A stretch of 24,712 nt of DNA from a virus. Taxonomy: Duplodnaviria; Heunggongvirae; Uroviricota; Caudoviricetes. Within the stretch, counting starts at the first letter, position 1. Every line of letters starts with the position of its first letter. The notes below the pieces were generated by a model that saw only the letters and a list, made by a program, of their open reading frames with translations, had not been told where the DNA came from and did not search any database. Below, piece by piece: positions 5,188-18,784 of this stretch. The stretch is taken from IMG/VR virus record IMGVR_UViG_2541047887_000002; one strand, written 5' to 3'. A program made the position numbers and the translations under genes.

Positions 5188-5876
5188 TCACTGAGACACT
5201 ATTAAAAGCGCGTTTTCCAGTCCAGCAAATGGATCTGATACGCCTTCTGTCTGCTCCTTCTCCCACTGAAGAAGCGCATCATTCAGTGGCACTTTGACCC
5301 CCTGCGCACCGTAAACAGCTGAAACAATCTGGGCAGCCCGGATATCAGCCCGTTCGTCCCCCAGCGGGCTGAACCTGTCAAATTCTGCCCACATCATGAT
5401 TTCTGATGCGGACATTTCCCGGCGTAACTCTGACAATGTGCGCCCCATCCTGAGCGCCAGCATCATCAGAAAACGCATCCCCGGAAGCGCTACTTTTTTT
5501 TAACCTCGCCGGCATCACTGATTAGTTCCAGAGACTGCCGAAGAAGCCGCGCATGCACCGGGCCATACACGGCAATCACCTGTTCACGATCATCCTCTGA
5601 AAATACAGGTTGCAGTCCGGTATCACACAGAACATCGATGAACAGTTCAACATCCGCTTCCAGATTTCGGCGGGCGCGCTCCGCAACGGATAACGGTGTC
5701 TCATCATCTTTTGCTTTAACGATCTCCTGCCAGCGCAACCAGGCTTCTGCAGAAGGTTCCCGTAATACAACCGTTGCCCCTTCCCATTCAGGCACATCAA
5801 CAGTTTTATGGCGAAACCCCGACATCGTTGCCAGTGCCAGATTACGGATATTTTTAGTCATCACATCTATCCTCAT
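5188..5876 (-). CDS. GT: Tail assembly chaperone GT, made by a programmed -1 ribosomal frameshift
   Basis: Minus-strand heptamer A AAA AAG (plus 5493-5499) sits just before the G stop TAG. The -1 frame is open from the slip site to the stop at 5188 and encodes ...KKVALPGMRFLMMLALR.... Confidence 0.75.
5490..5876 (-). CDS. G: Tail assembly chaperone G
   Basis: 128-aa acidic protein ending GEVKKK-stop. Its start overlaps the V stop (TAATG). Its 3' end carries the slippery heptamer. Confidence 0.85.
   Translation of the reverse strand: MRIDVMTKNIRNLALATMSGFRHKTVDVPEWEGATVVLREPSAEAWLRWQEIVKAKDDETPLSVAERARRNLEADVELFIDVLCDTGLQPVFSEDDREQVIAVYGPVHARLLRQSLELISDAGEVKKK
5493..5499 (-). promoter_or_regulatory. 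-1 frameshift slippery heptamer A AAA AAG for G to GT
   Basis: Read directly from the sequence. The conserved G/GT frameshift of long-tailed phages is established knowledge. Confidence 0.7.
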
Positions 5877-11365: not shown

Positions 11366-13123
11366 TCACAGAATTAACAGGTCCTCATCAGGATCAAGCG
11401 TGGACAGAAAGTCATTCACGCCCCCTCCATTTACCAGAAAGCGGCTCATGGCTGTAAAAAGCGCAACAGGGCCGTCGATTTTGGCTTCCGGCGTGGATTT
11501 ATTCGGGAAGATGTTGTCGTTTTTGTCCGGTTTTACAGTAACGTTAGACATCATCCAGTTCATGACCGGATGATTGCTGTGATGGAAACGCCCGGCATAA
11601 ACCAGTGATTCCGTTTCCTTCATGGCCTCTGACAGATTGCGGACCGTCTGCGGAACCTCCACCAGCGGTATCCCTTCTTCAGCCAGTGCCAGGCTGAACT
11701 GCATTGCGCTCCACGGGTCAAATCCCAGTTCCCTGAGGTTTTCACCGCCAATCCATTCCAGTAAGTCACTTTTTATCTGAGCATGATCGATAACATCACC
11801 ATCCGTCAGGATGAGCTTATCCATCTCCGCCCACTTCCGGTAAAGTTCTGCCTGCTGCCGCGAGCATCGTTCCAGCCGTCCTTCCGGAAGCCAGAATTTA
11901 AAATCAGCATGAACATGTCCGTTATCGGTTCGCCAGAGTTTTGCCGCCGCACAGATATCAATCTTATGAGCAAGGTCGACGCCGACCCACATGGGATATG
12001 TTTTCAGCTCATGTTGTGGAGCAATGTATTCGCACTTCTCCCACTTAATCATATCCATCCAGGCAGATTCGGCAGTGACCCACACATTCATGTGTTTGGT
12101 AAAAAAATTCACCCGCGCAGAGACCTGCTCCTTCGCTTTTTTCGCCAGACGACGCAGATCATCCCAGCGTTTACAGATGCCCAGGCCAGGATTCGCTTTC
12201 TGCCAGACCGTTTCATCAAACGGATCATCTCCCTCATCAAGCGTGTAAATGATCGCAAAGTAAGAGTCGTCTTTTACAGCGCCCTCCACGTCGCTGTTAT
12301 AGCCTCGCAATACCTTGATGGCGTAATCACGCTGCTCGTAACAAATCCCTTCCTTGTTAAAGCCAGCCGTGGTGATACCAAATAACAGGGACTGCAGACG
12401 GGCACCGGTTGCCGTTTCCAGAACGTCCCACACGTCGCGGGTTTTATGTGCATGCAGCTCATCAATAATGGCGCAGTGGATGTTCAGACCGTCCAGGTTG
12501 TTTGCATCCGAGGAAAGCGGTTCAAATTTTGATGCGCTCTGCTCCTGGTAAATCGCCAGCTTGTTGAAATCAAACAACCGCCCGAGTGTCGACCGGGCTT
12601 TTCTGACCATATTTTTGGCGTCTTCAAACACGATTCTGGCCTGGTCACGCGTGGTTGCGGCTGAATACACCTCAGCTCCGCCTTCACTATCTGCCCCCGT
12701 CATATACAGGCCGATACCCGATGACAGTGTTGATTTTGCGTTTTTACGGGCGACTTCGTTGTACGCCGTCCGGAACCGGCGCACCATCACCGGACGTCCG
12801 CTGCCATCGCTGCGCATGACAACTTCCCCGGTTTCTTCATTGACCAGCGGAATGACAAAACCAAAAATATTAATGAGGATAAATACATGCCAGTCCATCA
12901 ACTCAATGGGCTGGCCTGCCAGTACCCCTTTTACATGAGGCACAAATTTGTAGAAATTCAGGATGTGCTGCGCACGGGGTTCACTGAAATAAATCCCCCG
13001 CTTTTCGCCGTACTTCAGATCATCAAGAAAACGCTGGCAGGCCAGGCGGACAAATTCGCCAGCAACAATTTCTCCTGCAACAACACGTTCGGCGTAGCGG
13101 ATCCCGTCAGCCACTTTTGCCAT
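11366..13123 (-). CDS. Terminase large subunit
   Basis: 585-aa ORF with an ATPase-like N-terminal region and nuclease-like C-terminal region. Its start overlaps the small terminase stop (ATGA). Confidence 0.9.
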   Translation of the reverse strand: MAKVADGIRYAERVVAGEIVAGEFVRLACQRFLDDLKYGEKRGIYFSEPRAQHILNFYKFVPHVKGVLAGQPIELMDWHVFILINIFGFVIPLVNEETGEVVMRSDGSGRPVMVRRFRTAYNEVARKNAKSTLSSGIGLYMTGADSEGGAEVYSAATTRDQARIVFEDAKNMVRKARSTLGRLFDFNKLAIYQEQSASKFEPLSSDANNLDGLNIHCAIIDELHAHKTRDVWDVLETATGARLQSLLFGITTAGFNKEGICYEQRDYAIKVLRGYNSDVEGAVKDDSYFAIIYTLDEGDDPFDETVWQKANPGLGICKRWDDLRRLAKKAKEQVSARVNFFTKHMNVWVTAESAWMDMIKWEKCEYIAPQHELKTYPMWVGVDLAHKIDICAAAKLWRTDNGHVHADFKFWLPEGRLERCSRQQAELYRKWAEMDKLILTDGDVIDHAQIKSDLLEWIGGENLRELGFDPWSAMQFSLALAEEGIPLVEVPQTVRNLSEAMKETESLVYAGRFHHSNHPVMNWMMSNVTVKPDKNDNIFPNKSTPEAKIDGPVALFTAMSRFLVNGGGVNDFLSTLDPDEDLLIL

Positions 13124-13605
13124 CAGTCTCTCGCTTTTAAAAGCTCTGCCAGCGGATCAACATTATCCGGTCCGGCGGTATTTACTTTTGCCCGGCTTGC
13201 CGGTGACATACCAAATTCTGCAAGCATCGCCCGGATCCGCTTCCAGGCATCCGCTTTCATCGCAGCAGCCGGGTGTGCCTTAATCAGCACATCACCGTTC
13301 TGCGTTTCCGAGCGGTAGGTGTACCCCTCAACATCGAGTGTTTCGCAGTGATGCCGGTATTCGGTATAGGCTTCCACCAGTAGCTCAAGCGCACGCGCAT
13401 CAAGCTGAGAAATGATCCCTTCCGCATTCAGCTCTTCCGCCATTCGCCTGAACCAGTACTTCCCCTGCGCCCCTAAATGTTGCGGAATTTTAGGGAGACC
13501 TTTTTCATCCTTTTTAGCGGTTTTTTTGAGGTCTTTAACTGGCCGCTTTGAGGGGTTGCCTCGTATCAAATGCAGGCGTGGCGGGATTTTCGGGGGTCCA
13601 GACAT
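13123..13605 (-). CDS. Terminase small subunit (P27-family like)
   Basis: 160-aa basic ORF immediately upstream of the large terminase and translationally coupled to it. Confidence 0.8.
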   Translation of the reverse strand: MSGPPKIPPRLHLIRGNPSKRPVKDLKKTAKKDEKGLPKIPQHLGAQGKYWFRRMAEELNAEGIISQLDARALELLVEAYTEYRHHCETLDVEGYTYRSETQNGDVLIKAHPAAAMKADAWKRIRAMLAEFGMSPASRAKVNTAGPDNVDPLAELLKARD

Positions 13606-13752
13606 AATCGGTTTTACCTATCAATCATTTGATCACATTCCAAAAAAAAGTTTTCGAACCTGCGGCGATGCGAGGAAAGGTCAGGCGGCGGTACTGAGCA
13701 GCCAGGGTTGCTGAGATTTGACCCGCCCCTCCCCTACAGATGGGAACTGTTA

Positions 13753-14103
13753 TCAATTGATGCGTTCGCGCGCTGTTTTTGCTTTATGACAGGGCCAGCA
13801 CAGACTCTGCAGGTTACTGTCTGCATCTGTGCCACCATGAGCTTTCGGAATGATGTGGTCCACAGTTCTGGCTTCAACGGCTCTCCCATTGCGCAGGCAG
13901 TTCTGACACAGATGATTATCACGCTTCAGTATGCGCGCACGTATGGCATCCCATTTCGAGCCATAGCCACGCTGGTGGCGGCTCAGTCCGCGTTGATGCT
14001 TTACCCATCCTTCGCCACGATGTTTATCGCAGTAACCAGAACTGTCTGTGGTTGTACCTGCACATCCACGCTTACGGCAGGCGCGTGGGATTAGTGCTGG
14101 CAT
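13753..14103 (-). CDS. HNH homing-type endonuclease, terminase-associated
   Basis: 116-aa ORF with CxxC...HxxxxH...CxxCH HNH motifs (CQNCLRNG...DHIIPKAHGG...CWPCH). Sits next to the terminase as in HK97-like phages. Confidence 0.85.
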   Translation of the reverse strand: MPALIPRACRKRGCAGTTTDSSGYCDKHRGEGWVKHQRGLSRHQRGYGSKWDAIRARILKRDNHLCQNCLRNGRAVEARTVDHIIPKAHGGTDADSNLQSLCWPCHKAKTARERIN

Positions 14104-14241
14104 GTTTCGCCCTTATATAAATCAAAGGTGACCTGCATTGAGTATCTCCATGGAATAGATTTGCTGCTGATATGAGACAGATCAATAGACTTCATGAGCC
14201 AACGGGTGTAGATATTACTTTTTACTTCAGAGGGTTAACTC

Positions 14242-14781
14242 ATGGATATTAAAGATAAAATCAATACCATTTTGTTATGTGACATTGCCATCCACCTAGG
14301 TATCGAAACTGATATTGATCCACAGCTTGTTAAATATGCTGTGTCATCTGGTAATGATTGGGTTATCAAGGCCGAATATTCACATTTGGATGTTGACGAA
14401 CCAAGTAAAGAAGATCGTGATTTTGTTACTGCTGTCTTGAATATGTATCGCGGACTTTCCAATGCTTTCAGGAAACTTAGTGATGACGAGCAAAAAGAAT
14501 TAGTCCGTGACCATCATCTAAAAATACATGATGGGGCAATTCAGCTCCCAGGTTTCGACGGTAATAATGAATGCGATTACTTCAGTATCATTGAGGCATA
14601 TCAGAAAATTGATCGCTTCCCCGAACAGAAACAGCCCATTGCCAATACTCATTCACGTACAGAACATCTCTATAACGCAATGCTTGATGAGTTTAAGAAA
14701 ATTGACGCTGTAAATCGAAGCTGGGATTTATCGAAGGAAGAACTGGCATCCATTCTTTCCACAGCTCCACGCAGTTTCTAA
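14242..14781 (+). CDS. YfbU-family (UPF0304) protein, moron gene on the opposite strand to the late operon
   Basis: 179-aa ORF with ATG at 14242 and an AGGG Shine-Dalgarno. AT-rich by eye. Sequence reminiscent of E. coli YfbU. Followed by its own plus-strand terminator. Confidence 0.7.
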   Translation: MDIKDKINTILLCDIAIHLGIETDIDPQLVKYAVSSGNDWVIKAEYSHLDVDEPSKEDRDFVTAVLNMYRGLSNAFRKLSDDEQKELVRDHHLKIHDGAIQLPGFDGNNECDYFSIIEAYQKIDRFPEQKQPIANTHSRTEHLYNAMLDEFKKIDAVNRSWDLSKEELASILSTAPRSF

Positions 14782-15208: not shown

Positions 15209-15676
15209 TTATCTGAGACATTGCTCACGAATGTATAGCTGTGCCCCTTCCAGTTGCTTCTGCATCGTCATCAACCGTTCTCTGAGGGTGAAATAATCCC
15301 GTTCAGCGGTGTCTGCCAGTCTGGGGCTGGTTGCATTATCCACGCTGGTGGGTCCGGTGGCTTCACGCACGGCTGCGGAGCAACTGGCATTGACCCGCAG
15401 GCGCTTACGACCAGCGGCAACATCAGCGCGCAGAGTTTCATTTTCAGCTTTCGCATTGGCTAATTCTCTCGAGTACTTTGCATCGAGCGCAGCAACATCA
15501 CGCTGACGCTGTTGCATGTCAGCGATGGTGGCAGTCGCCTGCTTCAGCTCACTGACTTTTTTATCACGCTGTTCTTTGTAGGCGATGGCGTTATCACGGT
15601 AATGATTGACCGCCCACGACAGGCAGACGATGGTGCAGATAACCAGAGTATAAATAATCGCTGCGACTCTGCTCAC
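15209..15676 (-). CDS. Rz: Rz i-spanin
   Basis: GTG start overlapping the endolysin stop (GTGA), with a GGGGGA Shine-Dalgarno. N-terminal transmembrane segment and coiled-coil periplasmic domain; collinear with lambda Rz. Confidence 0.85.
15271..15456 (-). CDS. Rz1: Rz1 o-spanin lipoprotein, embedded in the +1 frame of Rz
   Basis: 61-aa [25 protein letters not shown]... with lipobox LVVSAC and a Pro-rich mature part ([24 protein letters not shown]). Confidence 0.85.
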
Positions 15677-16206
15677 TGATCTATCCCCCAACAGGCTAAT
15701 GCGCTTTCCTGGTCACGACGAATAACCTGTCCATAGCAGTTATTTGAACGTATGCGGCAATCGCGCCCACCATCTTTTATCCACCAGCGAATCGCCTCGC
15801 ATGCGCCCTTACGATCACCGGCATTCAGCCGCTTATAAAACGTCGACGGGAAACACTTACCGGGGCCAATGTTATAGGGACAGAATGACGCTATACCCGC
15901 TTTCTGTGGTTCGGTCAGTGGTACTTTAATATTGCGCTCTACCCATGCCAGCGCCTTATCACGTTCAATAGCGTTAACCTGGTCGCATTTTTCCTTCGAC
16001 AGCTTCATTCCCGGTATGACGGGCTTACCATCCACCATTGTGGCACCCCGACAGATGGTCCAGATGCCGGCCCCATCGCGGTATGCCGTTGTGTGGTTAC
16101 CTTCTTTTTCATCCAGAAACTGGTCGAGAATATCAGGCGCGGGCGCACCGACGGCAATCAGTGCCAGAACGGCAGCCGACAGGCCGTATCTGATTTTTGC
16201 GTTCAT
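15673..16206 (-). CDS. R: SAR endolysin (T4-lysozyme-like / GH24, phage 21 R type)
   Basis: 177-aa ORF with an N-terminal hydrophobic signal-anchor-release segment ([18 protein letters not shown]) and catalytic spacing E-8aa-D-5aa-T ([16 protein letters not shown]). Confidence 0.9.
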
Positions 16207-18534: not shown

Positions 18535-18611
18535 TGGCGCGTTGTACTGGATTCGAACCAGTGACCGATTGCTTAGAAGGCAATTGCTCTGTCCGGTTGA
18601 GCTAACAACGC
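18535..18611 (-). tRNA. tRNA-Arg (anticodon UCU)
   Basis: Hand-folded cloverleaf: acceptor GCGUUGU/ACAACGC, D-stem GCUC/GAGC, anticodon stem AUUGC/GCAAU with loop CUUCUAA, T-loop UUCGAAU, encoded 3' CCA. Confidence 0.75.
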
Positions 18612-18624
18612 AGGGTACAGATAA

Positions 18625-18701
18625 TGGACCGCCATCGAGGACTCGAACCCCGCGCAACCAGCTTCGAAGGCTGGTGCTCTATCCTGATGAGCTAATGGCG
18701 G
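18625..18701 (-). tRNA. tRNA-Arg (anticodon UCG)
   Basis: Hand-folded cloverleaf: acceptor CCGCCAU/AUGGCGG, D-stem GCUC/GAGC, anticodon stem CCAGC/GCUGG with loop CUUCGAA, T-loop UUCGAGU, encoded CCA. The 5' end is uncertain by 1 nt. Confidence 0.65.
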
Positions 18702-18708
18702 TATGTGA

Positions 18709-18784
18709 TGGTGGCCCTTGCTGGATTTGAACCAGCGACCTGGCGATTATGAGTCGCTCGCTCTCACCTCTGAGCTAAAGGGCC
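18709..18784 (-). tRNA. tRNA with anticodon CAU, most likely tRNA-Ile2 (ileX/ileZ-like); elongator Met not excluded
   Basis: Sequence GGCCCUUUAGCUCAG...GACUCAUAAUCGC...GGUUCAAAUCCAGCAAGGGCCACCA closely resembles E. coli ileX as I recall it. Anticodon loop CUCAUAA. Confidence 0.7.

What the first reader, a model, noticed from the sequence alone, without database searches (positions are those of the whole stretch)
13606..13752. Candidate cos/packaging site between the HNH gene and the small terminase
In HK97-like phages the cohesive-end site lies in the short gap between the terminase-associated HNH endonuclease and the small terminase gene. This 147-bp gap contains an A8 tract, GC-rich blocks (GGTCAGGCGGCGG and GACCCGCCCCTCCCC) and no ORF. 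If this is the cos site, the prophage genome is permuted so that head and tail genes lie to the left and lysis and early genes to the right.
Basis: inference. Interest (0 to 1): 0.3.

Follow-up and report, generated by a model that had tools for sequence, protein, structure and literature searches.

The report
HK97-type cos site of a prophage
The 147-bp gap between the HNH endonuclease and small terminase genes of this E. coli prophage is very probably its cohesive-end (cos) DNA packaging site, an ordinary member of the well-known HK97/phiP27 type.

Summary
The gap 13606-13752 lies between an HNH gene (13753-14103, minus) and a P27-family small terminase gene (13123-13605, minus). It holds the A8 tract and both GC-rich blocks as described.

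Read in gene direction, the gap aligns with the cos regions of HK97, phiP27, SfI and SfV. All share a G-rich/GTCAAATC block, a 22-nt spacer and then ACCGCC. The cos annotated in phiP27, the cohesive end mapped in SfI and the HK97 record end all project onto window 13681-13690. The predicted 10-nt 3' overhang is 5'-CGCCGCCTGA-3' on the minus strand.

Two relatives with the window's own terminase type agree. The Proteus phage Pm34 record breaks exactly at the predicted bottom-strand nick. An assembly chimera in phage Fraca starts within 3 nt of the predicted top-strand nick.

Downstream lies a conserved block ending in the A8/T8 tract (13642-13669). It resembles the HK97 small-terminase site, which combines a G:C base pair with an A-tract.

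TerL matches only HK97 TerL among solved structures. There is no similarity to lambda cos.

No virion ends were measured for this prophage, so the exact nick positions remain inference. This is a new member of a known kind, of low interest. The one open point is the unstudied conserved upstream block.

The parts
13753..14103 (-). Terminase-associated HNH endonuclease gene (116 aa)
   Evidence: Pfam HNH E=1.9e-16. 89% identical to phiP27 L34. 37% identical to HK97 gp74 over a 70-residue local alignment, E=7e-12. Best PDB sequence match is the chain named HNH endonuclease, 5H0M.
13715..13734 (-). Block A: GGGGAGGGGCGGGTCAAATC, a conserved upstream cos element. A cosQ-like role or a role in positioning the nuclease is inferred, not shown.
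   Evidence: Conserved in HK97, phiP27, SfV, SfI, Klebsiella, Morganella and Proteus phages at a fixed 22-nt distance from ACCGCC. Its position follows the cut site and not the HNH stop codon, which lies about 260 nt further upstream in HK97.
13693..13714 (-). 22-nt spacer of fixed length and variable sequence
   Evidence: Low-information columns in 110 unique relatives. Spacer length 22 accounts for 66 of 145 unique IMG/VR matches to GGTCAAATC-N18-26-ACCGCC.
13681..13690 (-). Predicted cohesive end: 10-nt 3' overhang 5'-CGCCGCCTGA-3'. Gene-direction strand (window minus strand) nicked between 13681 and 13680; window plus strand nicked between 13690 and 13691. The near-invariant ACCGCC motif is at 13687-13692.
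   Evidence: An ungapped alignment places the phiP27 cos-site CGCCCGCCCC, the SfI cos TGCCCGCCCC and the last 10 nt of the HK97 record, CGCCGCCAAA, on these bases. The Pm34 record breaks at -11|-10. The Fraca chimera junction is at +1..+3. The nick positions are inferred by homology and were not measured.
13642..13669 (-). Block C: ATCGCCGCAGGTTCGAAAAC-T8 (+12 to +39), the putative small-terminase recognition site.
   Evidence: Conserved in the 7 of 8 aligned phages that carry this TerS type (46-100% protein identity across that group). Replaced by a different sequence in phiP27, SfV and HK97, whose TerS differ. Analogous to the HK97 TerS site at +15..+29, which has a C:G pair at 21 plus an A-tract.
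13619..13631 (+). IHF-core consensus TATCAATCATTTG (WATCAANNNNTTR), a possible DNA-bending site between the TerS site and the terS start
   Evidence: This is the only exact match in the 24.7-kb window. It is retained in 22 of 29 unique relatives of the GGTTCGAAAAC subgroup and in 0 of 26 of the GGTTAGAAAAC subgroup. Binding was not tested.
13123..13605 (-). Small terminase gene (160 aa, P27 family)
   Evidence: Pfam Terminase_4 E=5e-25. RefSeq names it 'phage terminase small subunit P27 family'. 20-23% identical to the phiP27 and SfV TerS.
11366..13123 (-). Large terminase gene (585 aa)
   Evidence: Pfam TerL_ATPase and TerL_nuclease. Its only PDB sequence match is HK97 TerL 6Z6D, E=1e-35. 38% identical to phiP27 L36.

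Best explanation
The gap is the cos site of a lambdoid E. coli prophage that packages DNA by the HK97/phiP27 mechanism. Read in the direction of the genes (window minus strand), it has three parts. The first is an upstream G-rich/GTCAAATC block (13715-13734). After a 22-nt spacer comes the cleavage region, ACCGCCGCCTGA|CC. The terminase, stimulated by the HNH endonuclease, makes staggered nicks there (between 13690|13691 on the window plus strand and between 13681|13680 on the minus strand). These nicks leave 10-nt 3' cohesive ends, CGCCGCCTGA. The third part lies on the genome-left side: a recognition block for the small terminase that ends in a T8 (A8) tract (13642-13669), possibly followed by an IHF bending site (13619-13631). 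Packaging would start at this end, proceed through terS, terL, head and tail genes, and stop at the next cos in the concatemer after the lysis and HNH genes.

Shown here: the gene identities, the sequence homology of the site to cos sites with recorded ends, and the conservation and fixed spacing of the blocks. Inferred: the exact nick positions, the 3' polarity, which protein binds which block, and whether this copy is still active.
For: Gene context: HNH, Terminase_4 TerS, HK97-like TerL, portal, S78 protease and HK97-fold capsid. TerL matches only HK97 TerL among PDB sequences. In the alignment of 11 phage cos regions, the phiP27 'cos-site', the SfI cos TGCCCGCCCC and the HK97 right record end CGCCGCCAAA (record position 1 is +1 according to T16 and C:G21) all fall on window 13681-13690. 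The SfI cos was found as a 10-nt gap between run-off reads of virion DNA, which is the result expected for 3' overhangs. HK97 has 10-nt 3' overhangs, cleavage stimulated by HNH gp74, and a TerS site at +15..+29 made of a C:G pair plus an A-tract. Among phages with the window's own TerS type, the Pm34 linear record is broken at GGAC|CGCCCCCTTA, which is -11|-10. The first 127 nt of the Fraca record duplicate an internal TerL segment and are fused at +1..+3 of the predicted left end. In 110 unique IMG/VR relatives, ACCGCC, the +1/+2 CC and block A are near-invariant at fixed spacing while the spacer varies. The region occurs in 926 of 5426 complete E. coli genomes, always between TerS and HNH in the rows listed. 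No promoter-like site, terminator-like site or Rfam match competes for the gap.
Against: No virion DNA ends were measured for this prophage or for a close (>95%) relative. The predicted overhang CGCCGCCTGA is not identical to any mapped one (HK97 CGCCGCCAAA; phiP27 and SfI YGCCCGCCCC). Whether the Pm34 record ends were determined experimentally is unknown to me. The window's TerS shows no detectable sequence similarity to HK97 TerS (E=1.5), and its predicted structure gave no significant PDB match, so transferring the HK97 DNA-recognition mode is an analogy. The T tract starts at +32 here and at +24 in HK97. Phage records that are 95-99% identical run through the site without a break. That is expected for assemblies from concatemers or prophages, but it gives no support. 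The prophage may be defective: in E. coli M1/5, which carries an identical 251-bp cos region, the integrase is frameshifted.
Confidence: 0.85

Rival explanations
1. The cos site is in this gap, but the nicks are not at 13681-13690. For example, they could be shifted by a few bases, or the overhang could have a different length or polarity, because the overhang sequence and the TerS differ from those of the mapped phages.
For: The last 3-4 bases of the predicted overhang vary among relatives (TAA, TGA, TAG, CAA, TTA). The Fraca junction is ambiguous by 3 nt. The SfV record starts 7 nt upstream of the position mapped in SfI.
Against: Three independently recorded cos positions (HK97, phiP27, SfI) and the Pm34 record break coincide to the base in an ungapped alignment with invariant flanking ACCGCC.
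Confidence: 0.1
2. The phage packages by a headful (pac) mechanism, and the gap is only an intergenic or translation-initiation region.
For: No physical data exist for this prophage. Close relatives in the phage collection are deposited without ends at this position.
Against: TerL groups with HK97 TerL, and no other PDB chain matched by sequence. The HNH-TerS-TerL arrangement is that of cos phages. The conserved non-coding blocks with fixed spacing, shared with phages that have defined ends, have no explanation under headful packaging. Only the last ~20 nt are needed for a ribosome-binding site.
Confidence: 0.03
3. The site is an inactive relic in a defective prophage. The sequence is cos-like but is no longer cut in this host.
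For: The M1/5 prophage with an identical 251-bp region has a frameshifted integrase. Many E. coli prophages are cryptic.
Against: All packaging genes in the window are intact ORFs with full-length Pfam matches. The cos blocks match the family consensus at every near-invariant position. Phage records with 95-99% identical modules are deposited as phages. This rival concerns activity, not identity.
Confidence: 0.15

Closest known systems
Bacteriophage HK97 cos (10-nt 3' overhang; cleavage by TerL gp2 stimulated by HNH gp74; TerS gp1 site at +15..+29)
   Same: The core architecture is the same: a G-rich block ending in (A/G)TCAAATCT, a 22-nt spacer, then ACCGCCGCC at the cut. TerL is homologous (6Z6D, E=1e-35). 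HNH is homologous (E=7e-12). An A/T tract lies downstream of the cut, before terS.
   Different: The last three overhang bases differ (TGA here, AAA in HK97). The sequence downstream of the cut is unrelated. TerS shows no detectable sequence similarity, and HK97 gp1 has no Pfam match. The T tract is at +32..+39 here and at +24..+30 in HK97. The HNH gene is 147 bp from terS here and about 370 bp in HK97.
cos sites of phiP27 (annotated CGCCCGCCCC) and of Shigella phages SfI, SfV, SfII and SfIV (TGCCCGCCCC, mapped in SfI)
   Same: The position is the same, between a near-identical HNH gene (89% protein identity to phiP27) and a Terminase_4/P27-family TerS. Block A is identical (GGGGAGGGGCGGGTCAAATC). 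DNA similarity runs from HNH up to the cut.
   Different: DNA similarity ends inside the cohesive end, at window 13687. The overhang reads CGCCGCCTGA instead of YGCCCGCCCC. The terminase-side half and TerS (20-23% identity) are of a different subtype.
Bacteriophage lambda cos (cosQ-cosN-cosB, 12-nt 5' overhang, IHF site I1)
   Same: The logic is the same: an upstream element, a nicking site, and a downstream small-terminase site just before the small terminase gene. An IHF-core consensus lies in the downstream part.
   Different: There is no sequence similarity (score 18 against a null mean of 17.9). The terminase family differs. The predicted overhang is 3' and 10 nt. An HNH accessory nuclease is present.

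Membership tests
HK97-type cos site (HNH-assisted terminase, 10-nt 3' cohesive ends) | Lies immediately upstream of the small terminase gene and downstream of a terminase-associated HNH gene | tested here: met
   HNH 13753-14103, gap, TerS 13123-13605, TerL 11366-13123, all on the minus strand.
HK97-type cos site (HNH-assisted terminase, 10-nt 3' cohesive ends) | Large terminase homologous to HK97 gp2 | tested here: met
   The only PDB sequence match is 6Z6D, E=1e-35, covering residues 122-572. Pfam TerL_ATPase and TerL_nuclease.
HK97-type cos site (HNH-assisted terminase, 10-nt 3' cohesive ends) | Sequence homology of the cleavage region to HK97 cos | tested here: met
   (A/G)TCAAATCT-N22-CCGCCGCC is shared. 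Local alignment score 34; 0 of 300 shuffles reach it.
HK97-type cos site (HNH-assisted terminase, 10-nt 3' cohesive ends) | Virion DNA has defined ends with 10-nt 3' extensions at this site | not testable with these tools
   Only indirect support is available: the Pm34 record break at -11|-10, the Fraca chimera at +1..+3 and the SfI run-off gap of 10 nt.
HK97-type cos site (HNH-assisted terminase, 10-nt 3' cohesive ends) | Small terminase of the HK97 gp1 type that binds a G:C pair plus an A-tract downstream of the cut | tested here: inconclusive
   A conserved block with a T8 tract is present at +12..+39. However, TerS has no sequence similarity to gp1, and the AlphaFold model (pLDDT 67) has no significant PDB match.
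P27-family small-terminase cos phages (phiP27, SfV, SfI) | TerS belongs to Pfam Terminase_4 / the NCBI 'P27 family' | tested here: met
   Terminase_4 E=5e-25. The same family is found for the phiP27 and SfV TerS. RefSeq uses the same product name.
P27-family small-terminase cos phages (phiP27, SfV, SfI) | cos at the homologous position, with cohesive-end sequence YGCCCGCCCC | tested here: not met
   The position is homologous, but the sequence is CGCCGCCTGA. Some IMG/VR relatives of the window type carry an intermediate form, CGCCCGCCAA. The window therefore belongs to a different cos subtype.
Lambda-type cos (12-nt 5' ends, gpNu1/gpA) | Sequence similarity to lambda cosN/cosB and a lambda-type terminase | tested here: not met
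   The alignment score is no better than shuffles. TerS and TerL belong to other Pfam families.

The most novel reading that the evidence does not exclude
The upstream block (G-run followed by GTCAAATC, 13715-13734) sits exactly 22 nt before ACCGCC in HK97, phiP27, the Sf phages and over a hundred prophage contigs, whichever small-terminase type follows it. It may be an uncharacterised, essential cos subsite of the whole HK97 supergroup. It could be a cosQ-like termination signal, or the site that positions the HNH/TerL nuclease pair so that two different enzymes nick 10 nt apart. The HK97 papers I could read define only the downstream TerS site and do not mention this block.
Probability: 0.4. 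Interest if true: 0.4.

Novelty: new member of a known kind. Interest (0 to 1): 0.2.

Why it matters
The practical value is in annotation. The result fixes the virion genome ends of a prophage module present in about 17% of complete E. coli genomes (926 of 5426). This helps to orient such prophages, to recognise assembly artefacts at phage termini, and to predict what the terminase can package, such as cos-bearing satellites or plasmids. The comparative result has some mechanistic value. The HK97-type cos looks modular: a core shared across the supergroup (block A, a 22-nt spacer, ACCGCC) is joined to a terminase-side half that is exchanged together with TerS, and a recombination junction lies inside the cohesive end. 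That gives testable targets for the HK97 in vitro packaging system. None of this would surprise a specialist.

Tried and rejected
- **Structure route for TerS:** an AlphaFold2 model from 33 homologues (pLDDT 67) gave no significant Foldseek match in the PDB (best E=0.38). A sequence search of the PDB with TerS also gave nothing. The 'HK97-like TerS fold' therefore stays untested.
- **Promoter and terminator scan and Rfam search of 13300-14300:** nothing relevant. An RNA-element or regulatory-region reading has no support.
- **Small ORFs in the gap**, some annotated as hypothetical proteins in relatives: rejected, because the T tract they cross varies between 6 and 9 nt.
- **Contig ends in IMG/VR as a proxy for physical ends:** the three loci with fewer than 200 nt upstream of block C do not start at the predicted cut.
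- **Literature:** the SfV paper (PMC134923) and Kala et al. 2014 (PMC4000778) are not held. No paper was found for Pm34 termini or for the ON4705xx phages.
- **Source of the window:** I first assumed it comes from E. coli M1/5. That is wrong beyond the local region, because the tRNA positions differ by about 1.25 kb.

Full report
**Observation**

All genes in this part of the window are on the minus strand. In gene order they run as follows: lysis genes (Rz-type 15209-15691, lysozyme 15673-16206), HNH endonuclease (13753-14103), the 147-bp gap (13606-13752), small terminase (13123-13605, Pfam Terminase_4), large terminase (11366-13123), portal, S78 prohead protease, HK97-fold capsid protein, and then tail genes.

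- The A8 tract is at 13642-13649.
- GGTCAGGCGGCGG is at 13679-13691.
- GACCCGCCCCTCCCC is at 13720-13734.
- No ORF of 50 aa or more lies inside the gap. A 43-aa TTG ORF on the minus strand crosses it.

The description is therefore accurate.

**Origin**

The 251 bases around the gap are 100% identical to E. coli M1/5. They are at least 90% identical in most of the 926 (of 5426) complete E. coli genomes that carry the region. In the rows listed they lie between 'phage terminase small subunit P27 family' and 'HNH endonuclease'. In M1/5 this is a lambdoid prophage next to tRNA-Ser and mtfA. The window is not collinear with M1/5 everywhere: its tRNA cluster lies about 1.25 kb further away than in M1/5. 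The window therefore comes from a related but different prophage.

**Comparison with cos sites whose ends are on record**

Read in gene direction, the gap is:

...CATCAATTGA (HNH stop) TAACAGTTCCCATCTGTA-GGGGAGGGGCGGGTCAAATC-TCAGCAACCCTGGCTGCTCAGT-ACCGCCGCCTGA|CCTTTCCTCGC-ATCGCCGCAGGTTCGAAAACTTTTTTTT-GGAATGTGATCAAATGATTGATAGGTAAAACCGATT-ATG (terS).

- **HK97.** The right end of the record reads GGGCAGGGGGGGGGATCAAATCT-22 nt-CCGCCGCCAAA, and the left end starts GTTTGAATTTAACGCTAACCCGATTTTTTT. Record position 1 is the +1 of the published cos numbering, because T16 and the C:G pair at 21 fit. HK97 has 10-nt 3' overhangs. The overhang is therefore the last ten bases of the record, CGCCGCCAAA.
- **phiP27.** The GenBank record carries a 10-bp 'cos-site' feature, CGCCCGCCCC.
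- **SfI.** Run-off sequencing of virion DNA left a 10-nt gap, TGCCCGCCCC, relative to the prophage (PMC3636060). A gap rather than an overlap is what 3' extensions give; that step is my inference.

In a MAFFT alignment of eleven phages, all three positions fall without gaps on the same ten window bases, 13681-13690 (CGCCGCCTGA on the minus strand). The HK97 similarity is significant: score 34, against a shuffle mean of 17.1 and a maximum of 28. Lambda cos shows none: 18 against 17.9.

**Support from phages with the window's own terminase type**

TerS is only 20-23% identical to the phiP27 and SfV TerS, and DNA similarity to phiP27 stops at window 13687, inside the cohesive end. I therefore looked for phages with a TerS of the window's type.

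- **Proteus phage Pm34** (TerS 62% identical). The linear record is broken between ...CCTAGGAC and CGCCCCCTTACCTCTTTTCAC.... That is between -11 and -10, the predicted nick on the opposite strand. The record corresponds to the physical bottom strand of a molecule with a 10-nt 3' overhang. I could not find out how its ends were determined.
- **Phage Fraca** (TerS 70% identical). The record runs through cos at its right end. It begins with a 127-nt duplicate of an internal TerL segment, fused through a 3-nt microhomology (CCT) to +1..+3 of the predicted left end. A chimera formed at a free DNA end would look like this.
- **Other assemblies.** The Evi assembly is rearranged across the region, and the 'circular' record of PSTRCR_117lys lacks about 38 nt spanning the site.

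These last observations are circumstantial, but all of them point to physical ends here.

**Anatomy and conservation**

The following features lie outside the 26 bases used for that selection:

- ACCGCC (-12 to -7) and the CC at +1/+2 are almost invariant.
- Block A (G-run plus GTCAAATC or GTTGAAAG/GTAAAAAC variants) is strongly conserved.
- The spacer has low information and a fixed length.
- The last bases of the overhang vary: CGCCGCCTAA 40, CGCCGCCTGA 32 (the window's form), CGCCGCCTAG 14, CGCCCGCCAA 12, and others.
- The T tract has 6, 7, 8 or 9 bases (34/38/37/1 sequences). No reading frame through it can therefore be conserved.

A second scan used GGTCAAATC-N18-26-ACCGCC, which does not depend on the terminase side. 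Spacer length 22 gave 66 of 145 unique hits. The true sites were followed by at least three unrelated downstream sequences: the window type, the phiP27/SfV type ACCCGCGAAA..., and others. The site therefore looks modular. A core (block A, 22 nt, ACCGCC) is shared across the HK97 supergroup and travels with the HNH/TerL side. A downstream half changes together with TerS.

**Mechanism**

Taken from HK97:

- TerS binds 15 bp starting 15 bp downstream of the cut. It reads one G:C pair directly and reads an adjacent A-tract through DNA shape.
- Bound TerS stalls the incoming motor so that the cut site sits in the TerL nuclease.
- HNH gp74 stimulates cleavage and may cut the second strand.

Inferred for the window:

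- Block C (13642-13669, CGCCGC...GAAAAC-T8) is the TerS site.
- The two nicks have non-symmetric contexts (TGA^CC on one strand, GCG^GT on the other), as expected if two different nucleases act.
- Block A is a cosQ-like or nuclease-positioning element.
- The IHF-core consensus TATCAATCATTTG (13619-13631) may supply a bend, as site I1 does in lambda cosB. It is the only exact match in the whole window. It is kept in 22 of 29 unique relatives of the window's subgroup, although the unspecified positions vary, but in none of the sister subgroup.

The TerS analogy rests on position and composition only. TerS has no sequence similarity to HK97 gp1, and the structure route was uninformative.

**Rivals**

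- **Headful packaging** is very unlikely given the TerL type, the HNH gene and the conserved cos core.
- **A shift of the nicks by a few bases** cannot be excluded without end mapping.
- **An inactive copy** is possible. Whether this copy is active is unknown: the packaging genes are intact, but the M1/5 relative has a frameshifted integrase.
- **No alternative function for the gap** was found. No promoter-like site, terminator-like site or Rfam family explains it.

**Verdict**

The feature is an ordinary HK97/phiP27-type cos site of a very common E. coli prophage module. It counts as a new member of a known kind. Its cohesive-end sequence differs in the last bases from those mapped so far. 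Interest is low. The one point that may deserve an experiment is the supergroup-wide upstream block at a fixed 22-nt distance from the cut. The HK97 papers I could read do not address it.

Noticed in passing
window 13687 (edge of similarity to phiP27); L001 2499-2510: A mosaic junction lies inside the cohesive end. DNA similarity to phiP27 (HNH 89% at protein level) runs from the HNH gene to window 13687 and then stops. The terminase side is of a different lineage (TerS 20% identical, TerL 38%).
   Followed up: partly
L014 (Escherichia phage CharmingMan, PP925830.1), about 130-150 nt upstream of terS: The ~19-bp cleavage core CCAAAGGACCGCCGCCTAA is present in inverted orientation (TTAGGCGGCGGTCCTTTGG), while block A and block C keep their normal orientation. 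This is either a real inversion of the nicking site or an assembly artefact at the phage termini.
   Followed up: no
L015/L016/L246 (Fraca, LR597645.1); L017 (Evi, LR597642.1); L141/L142 (PSTRCR_117lys, MW358929.1): Three deposited phage assemblies are corrupted exactly at cos. Fraca starts with a 127-nt duplicate of internal TerL sequence. Evi has an inverted 128-nt terS piece in place of window 13650-13831. PSTRCR_117lys lacks about 38 nt across the site and is labelled circular.
   Followed up: partly
window 13619-13631 (+): The only exact match to the IHF core consensus WATCAANNNNTTR in the whole 24.7-kb window lies in the gap, between the T8 tract and the terS start. It is conserved in 22 of 29 unique relatives of the window's subgroup.
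   Followed up: partly
window 13738-13762; L009 about 650-680 (HK97): The similarity to HK97 extends upstream of block A (CATCAATTGATAAC...CCCATC against CATCAAATGAGAAT...CGCATC). Here it overlaps the HNH stop codon; in HK97 the same stretch is non-coding. Several relatives have an inverted repeat TCAAATGA...TCATTTGA at this place. This may be a further cos subsite.
   Followed up: no
window 14242-14781 (+): A YfbU-family gene (Pfam YfbU, E=6.5e-12) sits on the opposite strand between the lysis cassette and the HNH gene. It looks like a moron inserted just upstream of the packaging module.
   Followed up: no
window 18535-18784 (-): Three tandem tRNA genes: Arg-tct, Arg-tcg and a CAT anticodon that ARAGORN calls Met and RefSeq calls Ile in M1/5. 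They lie upstream of the lysis genes. They are about 1.25 kb further from the holin than in E. coli M1/5, so the window carries an extra segment there.
   Followed up: no
window 5494-5501 (-), between ORFs 5490-5876 and 5188-5478: An A8 run on the coding strand lies at the very end of the tail assembly chaperone ORF, just before the gpT-like ORF. This is the expected place for the programmed -1 frameshift that makes the G-T fusion protein.
   Followed up: no
L138 38742-39792 (E. coli M1/5, outside the window): The integrase of the M1/5 prophage that carries the identical cos region is annotated as frameshifted. At least that copy may be unable to excise.
   Followed up: no
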